A DNA stretch of 39,449 nucleotides from IMG/VR virus record IMGVR_UViG_2671180847_000006, positions 1-39,449 of that record; one strand, written 5' to 3'. The first letter of the stretch is position 1. Each line of letters opens with the position of its first letter. Of the stretch, positions 3,001-6,000 are shown piece after piece. Source of the DNA: a virus. Lineage: Duplodnaviria; Heunggongvirae; Uroviricota; Caudoviricetes. A program made the position numbers.

Positions 3001-6000
3001 CGCTTTCAAGCCATAACACGGGTAACATTTTACTGCTTGCTCCGTTCCTTGCGCATTTTAGCAAAGCGTTCTGCCATTCTGCGCTCAACTTCGTCATGGG
3101 GAATTGCTGGGCGCGGATCTGCAAGGCTCGTTGCTACTTTCGCACGCAGCCATTCGTTGTAACTGTTTTCTTGTTCAATGGTTTCAAATTCAGAAACCAT
3201 TGGTGAAAGGGCTCTATTCATGTTTCCTCCGGTTTTATAACTCAGGCGCGGCGGCATTTTTGCGCCGCAATCCATCTCGCTATGAGATCTTCCATTGATT
3301 CTTTTTTCTGCTTTAACTCGCTGATTATCTGGCGTTGCTCATCCTCAGGGAAGGCTGAAAAAATCTGCAATAATTCCAGTTGATTAGACGTTAACCCTGC
3401 ATGTGGTGGAGAAACTTCCGGTTGTTCTGCGTATTCCGCATCCAGATACCCTTCCGGCATCCCGTATGTTTGCTCTATTCTTCTGGCAGCCTTTTCTCCA
3501 AACGAGGCCCTCCCACTCATTAGTTGAGATAGGTAGCTCTTCTCTTTGGGTGGCAGAGTTTTATCTTTAAACCACTCCTTGAGACGTAAACGGCGAATTT
3601 CTTTTTTTTGCATGCGGTAATTATCTTTAGTAATCACTAAACAAGCAAATACTTGACTTAATGGTTTATTAAACACTAAACTCACAAAAAAACACTAAAC
3701 CGAGGAAGGTATGACATTAAAAGAGTTTATTAAATCATTGAGGGTTGGTGATGCTAAGAAATTCGCGGCCAGACTTGGTGTATCGCCATCTTACTTATCG
3801 CAAATGGCGTCTGGACGAGCAGCTATATCTCCAACCCGCGCCCTTATGATCGAATCTGCGACGGAAGGCCAAGTAAGTAGGGCGGAGCTACGACCCCATG
3901 ATTGGGAGCTTATTTGGCCTGAGTATGCGAGCGGCATTCGTTTGGGGCAAACACATGTAGTTCATGCTGAAGGTGATTGTAGTGCATGCTTATCTGATGG
4001 AGTTGATTCATGAAAATCAAGCATGAACACATCCGCATGGCGATGAATGCCTGGGCGCATCCGGACGGTGAAAAAGTTCCGGCAGCTGAAATAACCCGGG
4101 CTTATTTTGAGCTGGGTATGACGTTCCCGGAATTATATGACGACAGCCATCCGGAAGCCCTGGCTCGCAATACTCAGAAAATTTTCCGCTGGGTGGAGAA
4201 AGACACCCCTGATGCGGTTAAAAAAATTCAGGCGTTGTTACCAGCGATCGAAAAAGCAATGCCTCCTCTGCTGGTGGCCCGAATGCGCAGCCACAGTTCA
4301 GCCTGGTTTCGGGAGCTGGTGGAGACGCGGGAACGACTGGTGAGAGACGCTGATGATTTTGTCGCAGTGGCGATCGCTGGTTTCAATCAGATGAATCGTG
4401 GTGGTCCGGCGGGAAATGCCTTGGTGATGCACTAAAAGCACGGTGTTCGGAGTTTTTTTATGAGCAGCAAGCTTCATGGTCTTGTCTGGGAAGGGTGCGC
4501 CTTCACCGGCATGATCTTATCCAGGGTGGCAGTAATGGCTCGCCTTGCAGATTACAGCAATGACGAAGGTGTGTCATGGCCTGCAGTGGAGACCATTCGT
4601 CGTCAGATTGGGGCAAAGAGTGAATCAACGGTTAAAGCTGCGATAGCAGAACTGGAAAAGAACGGCTGGCTGACGAAGGAAGAACGTAAGGTCGGTGGGC
4701 GTAATGAAAGCAATATCTACCGTCTTAATGTGGAAAAACTCGAAGCAGCAGCAGCGGCGGCGCGTGAGGCATATAAACCGAAAAGAAAAATTAACCCGGT
4801 AAAAAATGACCCGTCAAATATTGACCCCTCAACGGTTGACCCCTCAAATTTTGATGGATCAACCGTTGATAAAAAACATCCGGTTAGGGGGGCGATGGTT
4901 GGCCCCGATCCGTCAGTATTAAAACCTGATCCGTCAGATAAAAGATCTTTTCGTCCGGACGCTTCGCAACCGGACCCGCAGACGGCTGAACAGGATTTTT
5001 TAACCCGACACCCTGACGCGGTTGTGTTCAGTGCGAAAAAACGCCAGTGGGGCAGCCAGGAAGATTTGGCGTGTGCGCAGTGGATCTGGGGACGAATCGT
5101 GAGTCTTTACGAGCAGGCTGCCAGCGATGATGGCGAAATCATGCGACCGAAAGAACCCAACTGGACTGCATGGGCCAATGACGTGCGCACAATGCGGATG
5201 CTTGATGGCAGAACTCACAGGCAAATTTGCGAAATGTTTGGTCGGGCACAGCGGGATCCATTCTGGGTAAAAAACGTCATGAGCCCGTCAAAGCTTCGCG
5301 AAAAATGGGATGAGCTGGTTATTCGTCTGGGGCGTTCGCCTGTACAGCGTTGCGTGAATCATATTTCCGAGCCGGACGCCGAAATTCCGCCGGGATTCAG
5401 GGGGTAACGAAGCATGAAAAATATTGCGACAGGCGGTGTTCTTGAACGCATCCGTAAGCTGGCTCCGCAGCATGTAACCGCGCCATACCGAACAGTGGAC
5501 GAGTGGCGCGAGTGGCAACTTGCAGAAGGCCAGAAGCGTTGCGAGGAGATCAACCGCCAGAATCGTCAGTTGCGGGTGGAAAAAATTCTGAATCGCTCCG
5601 GCATCCAGCCGTTGCACCGCAAGTGCTCGTTTGCGAATTACCAGGTGCAGAATGACGGCCAGCGATACGCGTTGAGCCAGACGAAATCCATCGCCGATGA
5701 ACTGATGACCGGATGCACAAATTTCGCATTCAGCGGAAAACCTGGTACCGGGAAAAACCACTTAGCGGCGGCTATCGGGAATCGCCTGCTGAAAGATGGC
5801 CAGACAGTGATTGTGGTTACCGTGGCTGATGTTATGAGTGCTCTACACGCCAGCTATGACGACGGGCAATCAGGCGAAAAATTTTTGCGGGAACTGTGCG
5901 AAGTGGATCTGCTGGTTCTTGATGAAATTGGCATTCAGCGCGAGACGAAAAACGAGCAGGTGGTACTGCACCAGATTGTTGATCGCCGGACAGCGTCGAT

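What the first reader, a model, noticed from the sequence alone, without database searches (positions are those of the whole stretch)
4805..4940. Iteron-like repeats inside the replication-initiator gene (probable ori)
Four about 15-bp-periodic repeats with internal dyad symmetry (TTGACCC[C/G]TCAA) and two GATCCGTCAG repeats fall within the initiator ORF and encode a repetitive DPS-rich linker, analogous to lambda ori lying inside O.
Basis: seen in the sequence. Interest (0 to 1): 0.45.

Follow-up and report, generated by a model that had tools for sequence, protein, structure and literature searches.

The report
Lambda-style replication origin inside initiator gene
The repeats are real and are almost certainly the binding sites of a lambda-type phage replication origin, written into the disordered-linker codons of the prophage's own initiator gene; this is a textbook arrangement, seen here in an initiator family whose origin is not annotated in any record I examined.

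Summary
Four 12-bp dyads (TTGA-N4-TCAA) sit at an exact 15-bp period at 4806-4862, followed by a half-site with an A6 tract and two TGATCCGTCAG copies 21 bp apart. This is the only tandem array in the 39-kb window.

The gene (4460-5407) has three parts: an N-terminal winged-helix domain (Pfam HTH_36), a predicted disordered linker, and a C-terminal domain homologous to lambda O (37% identity, E 5e-26) and phi80 gp15. The repeats occupy the same place in the gene as the annotated iterons of lambda and phi80.

Relatives from eight other genera and from isolated phages (SfII, YeP1, phiP27 and others) all carry 15-bp arrays at this position. The 12-mer occurs in both orientations in one reading frame, encoding DPS or EGS, and in phiP27 in two reading frames. 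Synonymous-codon permutation and Ser-TCA bias (60% against 13%) show that selection acts on the DNA, not the peptide. Unit number varies in 15-bp steps. Mosaic junctions lie just after the repeats, so the N-domain and its sites travel together.

No binding or origin assay exists. I rate it a new member of a known kind, of modest interest.

The parts
3653..3682 (+). pR-like sigma-70 promoter candidate upstream of the ydaS-like/ydaT-like/initiator/dnaC-like operon. It could supply transcription through the origin.
   Evidence: Consensus scan, 9 of 12 matches. This is a consensus match only. Gene order.
4460..5407 (+). Replication initiator gene (315 aa), of the O-like type.
   Evidence: PHROG phrog_391 'replication initiation O-like', E 2.5e-112. 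Pfam HTH_36 at aa 25-71. C-domain homologous to lambda O.
4460..4771 (+). Codes for the N-terminal winged-helix DNA-binding domain (aa 1-104), the presumed iteron reader.
   Evidence: AlphaFold2 model: helices plus a beta-hairpin wing, pLDDT 73-88. Foldseek matches ArsR/PadR/MarR-type winged-helix proteins.
4764..4811 (.). A-rich, low-stability leader to the left of the array (GAAAAGAAAAATTAACCCGGTAAAAAATGA).
   Evidence: Its 30-bp windows are 67-73% A+T and fall in the least stable 5% of the window.
4806..4817 (+). Iteron 1, ATGACCCGTCAA (encodes DPS).
4821..4832 (+). Iteron 2, TTGACCCCTCAA.
4836..4847 (+). Iteron 3, TTGACCCCTCAA.
4851..4862 (-). Iteron 4, TTGATGGATCAA. It is an inverted copy (G-rich centre) and encodes DGS.
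   Evidence: 2 mismatches to TTGAGGGGTCAA. Homologues have a perfect TTGAGGGGTCAA at this end of the array.
4866..4877 (+). Half-site plus A6 tract (TTGATAAAAAAC). An A5-6 tract ends the array in all relatives.
4829..4869 (.). 41-bp near-palindrome created where forward units meet the inverted unit. It could form a cruciform or hairpin.
   Evidence: Arms 20 nt, 90% complementary. Single-strand DNA fold z = -3.0.
4887..4906 (.). Degenerate copy of a second palindrome (GGGGTCAA-TGG-TTGACCCC in relatives; here GGGGGGCGATGGTTGGCCCC).
   Evidence: Alignment of 13 relatives.
4906..4916 (+). GATC-containing repeat 1 (CGATCCGTCAG).
   Evidence: Invariant at synonymous sites across genera.
4927..4937 (+). 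GATC-containing repeat 2 (TGATCCGTCAG).
4913..4951 (.). AT-rich segment including the palindrome AAAAGATCTTTT (4940-4951). It is the candidate unwinding element and the positional counterpart of the lambda/phi80 AT-rich region.
   Evidence: Least stable 5% of 30-bp windows. Aligns with phi80 AGTATTAAAAGATCTTCGTCCGAG and lambda AAAAGATTATTCGTCAGAG.
4865..4999 (.). Block with near-invariant synonymous sites across five genera.
   Evidence: Mean synonymous codon identity 0.88-1.00 here against 0.23-0.60 in the rest of the gene.
4787..4981 (+). Codes for the predicted disordered linker (aa 110-174), the part of the protein that overlaps the DNA signals.
   Evidence: pLDDT <50 for residues 110-174.
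4940..5323 (+). Codes for the C-terminal domain homologous to lambda O and phi80 gp15. In lambda this domain recruits the helicase-loading partner.
   Evidence: BLASTP 37% identity, E 5e-26 to lambda O; 36%, E 6e-27 to phi80 gp15. The mosaic junction with phage HannyBb starts at gene nt 481 = window 4940.
5342..5404 (+). C-terminal tail (…PDAEIPPGFRG), shared with K-12 YdaU and with the C-terminus of host DnaT.
5414..6160 (+). DnaC/IstB-like AAA+ helicase-loader gene, the partner of the initiator.
   Evidence: Pfam IstB_IS21, E 4.5e-20. PHROG 'DnaC-like helicase loader', E 3e-85.

Best explanation
This is the replication origin of a lambdoid prophage, built on the lambda plan. The initiator gene carries, in the codons of its own disordered linker, an array of binding sites for the initiator's N-terminal winged-helix domain. 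In this window there are four 12-bp dyads TTGA-N4-TCAA at a 15-bp period, plus a half-site. An AT-rich, GATC-rich segment follows.

Proposed mechanism (inferred). Transcription from the pR-like promoter makes the initiator. Dimers of its winged-helix domain occupy the dyads and form an O-some-like complex. The adjacent AT-rich stretch (about 4913-4951) opens. The lambda-O-like C-terminal domain and tail bring in the phage DnaC-like loader with host DnaB.

What is shown here: the existence and phasing of the sites; selection acting on the DNA rather than the peptide; conservation of the array across genera and in isolated phages; co-inheritance of the array with the N-domain; homology of the C-domain to lambda O; and the positional match to the annotated lambda and phi80 iterons.

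What is inferred: that this protein binds these sites, where the DNA melts, and that replication starts here.
For: (1) Real, phased, unique array.

(2) Initiator identity: PHROG O-like; C-domain 37% identical to lambda O, E 5e-26, and 36% to phi80 gp15; a DnaC-like gene follows.

(3) Same place in the gene as the annotated iterons of lambda and phi80. The downstream DNA aligns with the end of their AT-rich region.

(4) Selection acts on the DNA. The 12-mer occurs in both orientations in one reading frame, as TTGACCCCTCAA (DPS/DPP) and TTGAGGGGTCAA (EGS/EGL/DGS/KGS). The Morganella array is all inverted. In phiP27 the same 12-mer occurs in two reading frames. Synonymous-codon permutation gave p = 0-0.057 in each of 9 genes. 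Ser-TCA makes up 60% of Ser codons in the linker against 13% elsewhere. The generic dyad occurs at 11.6/kb in linkers against 0.6/kb elsewhere.

(5) The encoded peptide is predicted disordered, so it is free to carry DNA signals.

(6) Unit number varies in 15-bp steps: 3, 4 or 5 in E. coli prophages, 7 against 10 matching sites in Edwardsiella. This parallels the 4 against 6 iterons of lambda and Stx phages (PMC7466680).

(7) Modularity. Phages with an unrelated N-domain share the C-domain from gene nt 481 onward and carry their own different iterons at the same position. Relatives with a different C-domain keep the array and the GATC block.

(8) The N-domain is a winged helix of the dimeric operator-binding type, which fits palindromic 12-bp sites.
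Against: There is no experimental binding, unwinding or origin-mapping data for this family, and I found no paper on it.

The AT-rich segment is only 67-70% A+T and is interrupted by the two GC-containing repeats. An equally unstable A-rich tract lies on the other side of the array, so the site of melting is uncertain.

The 15-bp period is not helically phased, unlike the roughly 20-24 bp of lambda and phi80, so a lambda-like wrapped O-some cannot simply be assumed.

Many E. coli prophage copies carry degenerate units such as TTGCCCCCTCAA or TTGACCAGTCAA. This could mean tolerance of variation, decay in defective prophages, or weaker constraint than claimed.

The near-invariant block at 4865-4999 could reflect recent recombination rather than function.

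The sequences compared are related, so the p-values overstate independence.
Confidence: 0.8

Rival explanations
1. The repeats are a peptide-level feature only. They would be a flexible DPS-rich linker expanded by replication slippage, and the DNA repeats would be a by-product with no function as DNA.
For: The segment is predicted disordered. Unit number varies by whole 5-codon units. D-x-S periodicity is visible in the family consensus.
Against: The same DNA 12-mer appears inverted in frame, giving unrelated peptides (DPS against EGS), and in a second reading frame in phiP27. The motif count exceeds synonymous permutations in all 9 genes tested. Ser-TCA is 60% in the linker against 13% elsewhere. 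The conserved residues D and S map onto the conserved half-sites TGA and TCA, while the middle codon varies.
Confidence: 0.04
2. The repeats are protein-binding DNA sites but not an origin. They could be autoregulatory sites, a transcriptional roadblock for the initiator, or sites for another phage or host protein (for example SeqA/Dam at the GATC cluster), with the true origin elsewhere.
For: Four GATC sites in 100 bp tie for the densest cluster in the window. The GATCCGTCA repeats are invariant even where the array dyads differ between subgroups. The 15-bp period is not helically phased. A DnaA-box consensus lies 70 bp upstream.
Against: There is no other tandem array in the 39-kb window. 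The position matches the proven origins of lambda and phi80 in homologous genes. The array is inherited together with the initiator's DNA-binding domain. The DnaA box is not conserved outside the E. coli lineage.
Confidence: 0.1
3. The conserved block and repeats persist mainly as a recombination junction. Short conserved DNA between modules would promote exchange of N- and C-domains among lambdoid phages.
For: Mosaic junctions fall at gene nt 448 and 481, flanking the second GATCCGTCAG. Synonymous sites are near-invariant at 4865-4999. The AAAAGATCTT..CGTCCG motif is shared by lambda, phi80, HannyBb and this family.
Against: This does not explain the phased dyads, their palindromic form, or subgroup-specific variants. 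It is compatible with, rather than an alternative to, origin function. In lambda the same junction is the AT-rich part of ori (PMC7466680).
Confidence: 0.05

Closest known systems
Bacteriophage lambda ori (four iterons plus an AT-rich tract inside gene O)
   Same: The origin lies in the middle of the initiator gene, between the DNA-binding N-domain and the C-domain. It has tandem sites with internal dyad symmetry followed by an AT-rich stretch. The C-domain is homologous (37% identity, E 5e-26). Site number varies between relatives and changes the protein length (PMC7466680). The downstream motif AAAAGAT..TTCGTC.G is shared.
   Different: The N-domain belongs to another family (Pfam HTH_36; no Phage_rep_O hit). 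The sites are 12 bp at an exact 15-bp period, not 18 bp at 20-24 bp. Units occur in both orientations. The AT-rich tract is weaker and carries two conserved GATC-containing repeats. The partner is a DnaC/IstB-like ATPase rather than lambda P.
Phage phi80 gene 15 origin (four annotated gp15-binding sites)
   Same: The C-domain is homologous (36% identity, E 6e-27). The iterons are at gene nt 365-441. The DNA right of the iterons is nearly identical: phi80 AGTATTAAAAGATCTTCGTCCGAG against window GTATTAAAA…AAAAGATCTTTTCGTCCGGA.
   Different: The N-domain is unrelated. The phi80 iteron sequence (TTCCCGAAAACGGGAA type) and its 21-bp spacing differ. The partner protein is P-like gp14.
O-like initiators of SfII, SfIV, vB_EcoM-720R4, YeP1, Kp4866-6 and phiP27 L17
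   Same: They share the N-domain family (53-73% identity) and carry a 15-bp-period array of TGA-N4-TCA dyads at the same position, followed by GATCC repeats.
   Different: The flanking bases of the dyad differ between subgroups (TCTGACCCGTCAAAA, TCTGAACCGTCAGAA, TTTGAGGGGTCAAA). Some have another C-domain type or lack an adjacent dnaC-like gene. None of these records annotates the sites.
Iteron origins of theta plasmids (RepA, pi, RepE, TrfA)
   Same: A winged-helix initiator binds tandem repeats next to an AT-rich unwinding element.
   Different: Plasmid iterons are direct repeats of about 17-22 bp at roughly 22-bp phasing. They lie outside the rep gene, are bound by monomers, and are usually accompanied by DnaA boxes (own knowledge). 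Here the sites are 12-bp palindromes at 15 bp inside the gene, with no conserved DnaA box.

Membership tests
Lambda-type origin embedded in an O-type initiator gene | The sites lie inside the initiator coding sequence, between the DNA-binding N-domain and the C-domain. | tested here: met
   Array at gene nt 347-418. N-domain aa 1-104, disordered linker aa 110-174, C-domain aa 173-290.
Lambda-type origin embedded in an O-type initiator gene | Three or more tandem sites with internal dyad symmetry. | tested here: met
   Four full dyads TTGA-N4-TCAA plus a half-site, at an exact 15-bp period.
Lambda-type origin embedded in an O-type initiator gene | An AT-rich unwinding segment next to the iterons, on the C-domain side. 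| tested here: inconclusive
   4913-4951 is 67-70% A+T, falls in the least stable 5% of 30-bp windows, and aligns with the phi80/lambda AT-rich end. It is weaker than in lambda, and an equally unstable tract lies on the left side.
Lambda-type origin embedded in an O-type initiator gene | C-terminal domain homologous to lambda O. | tested here: met
   37% identity over aa 161-288, E 5e-26.
Lambda-type origin embedded in an O-type initiator gene | N-terminal domain of the lambda O type (Pfam Phage_rep_O). | tested here: not met
   Pfam reports only HTH_36 (E 5e-8) at E<=0.01. BLASTP to lambda O and phi80 gp15 finds no N-terminal match.
Lambda-type origin embedded in an O-type initiator gene | The N-domain and its iterons are exchanged together as one specificity module. 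| tested here: met
   Junctions at gene nt 448/481. HannyBb-type and YdaU-type initiators carry their own repeats at the same position. The array is kept when the C-domain differs.
Lambda-type origin embedded in an O-type initiator gene | The initiator binds the repeats. | not testable with these tools
   Needs EMSA or footprinting.
Lambda-type origin embedded in an O-type initiator gene | The segment supports autonomous replication, and replication starts there. | not testable with these tools
   Needs a plasmid (lambda-dv-like) assay or marker-frequency mapping.
YdaU family (K-12 Rac, DUF1376) | Sequence homology over the body of the protein. | tested here: not met
   Only the last 19 residues align (13/19 identical). 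The RefSeq product name of YdaU is 'DUF1376 domain-containing protein', and the Pfam scan of the window protein returns only HTH_36.
Theta-plasmid iteron origin | Direct repeats of about 17-22 bp at about 22-bp phasing, outside the rep gene, with DnaA boxes. | tested here: not met
   The sites are 12-bp dyads at a 15-bp period, in mixed orientation, inside the gene. The single DnaA-box match is not conserved.

The most novel reading that the evidence does not exclude
The origin may work with a geometry unlike lambda's. It is an unbroken run of alternating TTGA/TCAA half-sites 7 and 8 bp apart, at a 15-bp period (about 1.4 helical turns). Units flip orientation freely and create 27-41-bp palindromes. 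This would favour a protein filament or zipper along the DNA, or cruciform extrusion, rather than DNA wrapped on an O-some. In addition, the invariant pair or triplet of GATCC repeats in the unwinding zone would put firing under Dam methylation/SeqA control, as at oriC.
Probability: 0.15. Interest if true: 0.55.

Novelty: new member of a known kind. Interest (0 to 1): 0.3.

Why it matters
The result gives a concrete, testable origin map for a very common initiator type. Related genes occur in 3,278 of 5,426 complete E. coli genomes. The same type is found in Shigella serotype-converting phages, the Stx phage phiP27, and Klebsiella and Yersinia phages, where the gene is annotated variously as 'helix-turn-helix domain-containing protein', 'hypothetical protein', 'primosomal protein', 'O protein family protein' or 'replication protein O', and no iteron or origin site is annotated.

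It is also a clean example of dual coding. A binding site kept in either orientation forces the overlapping peptide to switch between DPS and EGS. That can serve as a general signature for finding origins hidden in initiator genes.

It does not change the understanding of how lambdoid origins work.

Tried and rejected
(1) YdaU homology. K-12 YdaU (annotated DUF1376) shares only the C-terminal 19-residue tail, so the gene is not a YdaU family member.

(2) DnaA box. TTTTCCACA at 4729-4737 (minus strand) matches the consensus, but it is absent from all relatives outside the E. coli lineage. I treated it as chance.

(3) Literature. Searches for oriJ/Rac, iterons with lambdoid phages, Eru replication types, and iterons with DnaC and winged helix found nothing on this family. 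The oriJ plasmid paper (Potrykus 2000, Plasmid 44:111) is not held in the library, and oriJ belongs to the YdaU-type Rac in any case.

(4) PDB sequence search. It gave only a weak match of the C-terminal tail to DnaT and no solved homologue of either domain.

(5) GATC density as evidence for Dam control. The 4-in-100-bp cluster only ties with another place in the window, so I kept it as a lead, not a finding.

(6) The first codon-permutation script timed out. I reran it with a faster method.

(7) Promoter and terminator scan of 3200-6300. It found no internal promoter or terminator in the repeat region.
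Full report
**Observation.** The region reads, in 15-nt rows in frame with ORF 4460-5407: AATGACCCGTCAAAT / ATTGACCCCTCAACG / GTTGACCCCTCAAAT / TTTGATGGATCAACC / GTTGATAAAAAACAT. 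This encodes NDPSN IDPST VDPSN FDGST VDKKH. Tandem Repeats Finder reports period 15 (score 61) and period 30 (score 77). This is the only tandem array scoring >=40 in the 39,449-bp window. A degenerate 12-mer search finds the four sites plus a single other near-match in the window. Two copies of (C/T)GATCCGTCAG lie 21 bp apart at 4906-4916 and 4927-4937. One refinement: unit 4 (TTGATGGATCAA) is an inverted copy, closer to TTGAGGGGTCAA than to TTGACCCCTCAA. Because of this, 4829-4869 is a 41-bp near-palindrome.

**The gene.** ORF 4460-5407 (315 aa) follows YdaS-like and YdaT-like genes and precedes a DnaC/IstB-like ATPase gene. It matches PHROG 391, 'replication initiation O-like', at E 2.5e-112. 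Pfam sees only HTH_36 at aa 25-71.

- An AlphaFold2 model built on a 37-sequence alignment gives a winged-helix N-domain (aa 1-104), a disordered stretch (aa 110-174, pLDDT <50), a helical C-domain (aa 173-290) and a disordered tail.
- The N-domain resembles dimeric ArsR/PadR/MarR-type winged-helix proteins.
- The C-domain is homologous to that of lambda O (37% identity, E 5e-26) and of phi80 gp15 (36%, E 6e-27).
- It is not a YdaU homologue. K-12 YdaU shares only the last 19 residues.

**Position relative to proven origins.** The lambda record annotates four iterons at gene nt 349-433 of O. The phi80 record annotates four gp15-binding sites at gene nt 365-441 of gene 15. The array here is at gene nt 347-418. 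The DNA to the right is also positionally homologous:

- window: GTATTAAAACCTGATCCGTCAGATAAAAGATCTTTTCGTCCGGA
- phi80: AGTATTAAAAGATCTTCGTCCGAG
- lambda: AAAAGATTATTCGTCAGAG

This is the right end of the AT-rich part of ori in lambda and phi80 (lambda ori layout as described in PMC7466680). In the window, 4913-4949 is 67-70% A+T and among the least stable 5% of 30-bp windows. The A-rich tract at 4764-4811, left of the array, is equally unstable.

**Is the repeat selected as DNA or as peptide?** I collected homologues from Erwinia, Mixta, Morganella, Edwardsiella, Citrobacter and Symbiopectobacterium, 80 viral contigs, E. coli genomes and isolated phages SfII, 720R4, YeP1, Kp4866-6 and phiP27. 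All full-length genes have a 15-bp-period array at the same place. The evidence points to DNA-level selection:

- The 12-mer occurs in both orientations in the same reading frame. TTGACCCCTCAA encodes DPS/DPP, and TTGAGGGGTCAA encodes EGS/EGL/DGS/KGS.
- In Morganella all array units are inverted (FEGSN IEGSN). In Edwardsiella anguillarum ten sites follow the pattern FFR FFR FFR plus a further R site 33 bp downstream.
- In phiP27 the same TTGACCCTTCAG occurs in two different reading frames.
- Permuting synonymous codons within each gene gives fewer motif matches than observed in all nine genes tested (p from 0/1000 to 57/1000).
- Ser is encoded by TCA in 60% of linker codons against 13% elsewhere.
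- The generic dyad NTGA-N4-TC[AG]N is 19-fold enriched in the linkers.
- The family consensus keeps D and S, which map to the half-sites TGA and TCA, and lets the middle residue vary.

The peptide therefore follows the DNA, not the reverse. The sequences are related, so these statistics are not independent trials. The orientation and frame switches are qualitative evidence and do not depend on the statistics.

**Modularity and variation.**

- Unit number changes in 15-bp steps: genes of 933, 948 and 963 nt in E. coli prophages, and 7 against 10 matching sites in two Edwardsiella species. This mirrors the 4 against 6 iterons of lambda and Stx phages (PMC7466680).
- Megablast shows that phages HannyBb, mEp460 and PhiR42_1 share the gene only from nt 481 onward, and SfII-like phages from nt 448.
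- HannyBb has an unrelated N-domain and its own five 23-bp repeats at the same position.
- Relatives with a different C-domain (L012, L013, YeP1, Kp4866-6) keep the array and the GATCC repeats.
- So the N-domain and its array form one specificity module, as in the classical lambdoid origins.
- Subgroups of the N-domain family have different bases flanking the dyad: TTGACCCCTCAA, TCTGACCCGTCAAAA, TCTGAACCGTCAGAA and TTTGAGGGGTCAAA.

**The conserved block.** Across five genera, synonymous codon identity is 0.23-0.60 over most of the gene but 0.88-1.00 for window 4865-4999. This block holds the GATCCGTCA repeats, in which Asp is always GAT and so creates GATC, whereas in the array units scored that match the C-centred consensus the DPS/DPP motif uses GAC. 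It also holds ATAAAAGATCT and the start of the C-domain. Four GATC sites fall in 4848-4947, which ties for the densest 100 bp in the window. The block may be the unwinding or loading zone, possibly sensitive to Dam/SeqA. It may also partly reflect recombination at the module junction. I cannot separate these possibilities.

**Mechanism proposed.** Shown: the sites, their phasing, DNA-level constraint, co-inheritance with the DNA-binding domain, homology and positional match to lambda and phi80. Inferred:

- Initiator dimers bind the dyads.
- The adjacent AT-rich segment opens.
- The lambda-O-like C-domain and tail recruit the DnaC-like loader with DnaB.
- Transcription from the pR-like promoter (3653-3682) passes through the origin.

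**Rivals.** I considered a pure peptide repeat, sites for a function other than an origin, and a recombination junction; each is weighed in its own section. A DnaA box 70 bp upstream is not conserved and was dropped.

**Novelty.** The principle is textbook. I found no paper on this family's origin. None of the records examined annotates the sites, whereas the lambda and phi80 records do annotate theirs. The unusual details are the 12-bp dyads at a non-helical 15-bp period, free flipping of units, and conserved GATC repeats. I rate it a new member of a known kind, with modest interest.

Noticed in passing
window 5342-5404 (aa 295-315); L016 2120-2977: The initiator's last ~20 residues (…PDAEIPPGFRG) match the C-terminus of K-12 YdaU (13/19 identical) and, weakly, the C-terminus of host DnaT (PDB 2ru8, 6aep, 9zbt; E 0.012-0.04). 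The tail is kept in relatives whether or not a phage dnaC-like gene follows. It may be a shared docking peptide for the DnaB/DnaC machinery.
   Followed up: partly
L016 2472-2563 (E. coli K-12 Rac ydaU, gene nt 353-444): ydaU carries four copies of AAGCAGATGTTCAA-like 14-mers, spaced 33, 33 and 12 bp, at the same relative position as the lambda, phi80 and window arrays. They are candidate iterons of the Rac origin oriJ.
   Followed up: no
L003 2846-2961 and 2966-3003 (phage HannyBb O-like gene): An initiator with an unrelated N-domain but the same C-domain has five 23-bp-period repeats (CATCRGKTCAAAATG) followed by AT-rich 12-bp repeats (ACAGAGAATACA). This is a different specificity module built on the same plan.
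   Followed up: partly
L100 1501-2427 (phiP27 L17, annotated 'hypothetical protein; unknown'): L17 of the Stx2e phage phiP27 belongs to this initiator family. It has its own 15-bp array (TCTGAACCGTCAGAA) and is followed by a DnaC-like gene (L18). The same 12-mer TTGACCCTTCAG occurs twice in different reading frames.
   Followed up: partly
window 2750-3685 (minus strand): Three small ORFs lie upstream of, and divergent from, the ydaS-like gene. At the homologous position in O157:H7 (L002), one ORF is annotated as a RelE/ParE-family toxin and the two beside it as hypothetical proteins. This resembles the paaR2-paaA2-parE2 module of CP-933P. I did not run family searches on two of the three ORFs (3242-3685 gave no Pfam hit).
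   Followed up: no
window 4729-4737 (minus strand): A perfect DnaA-box consensus, TTTTCCACA, lies 70 bp upstream of the array. It is present only in the E. coli lineage of the gene and absent in all other relatives, so it is probably chance.
   Followed up: yes
L017, L069 and other IMG/VR loci: Many E. coli prophage copies have truncated initiator ORFs (558 or 777 nt) or degenerate dyads such as TTGCCCCCTCAA, TTGACCAGTCAA and TTAACCCATCAA. This suggests decay of the origin module in defective prophages.
   Followed up: no
L001 and L003, downstream of the initiator gene: Some close relatives (a Rac-like E. coli prophage, and phages HannyBb and SfII) have no dnaC-like gene after the initiator; a DUF977, Ren-like or PerC-family gene follows instead. 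Their initiators presumably use the host DnaC.
   Followed up: no
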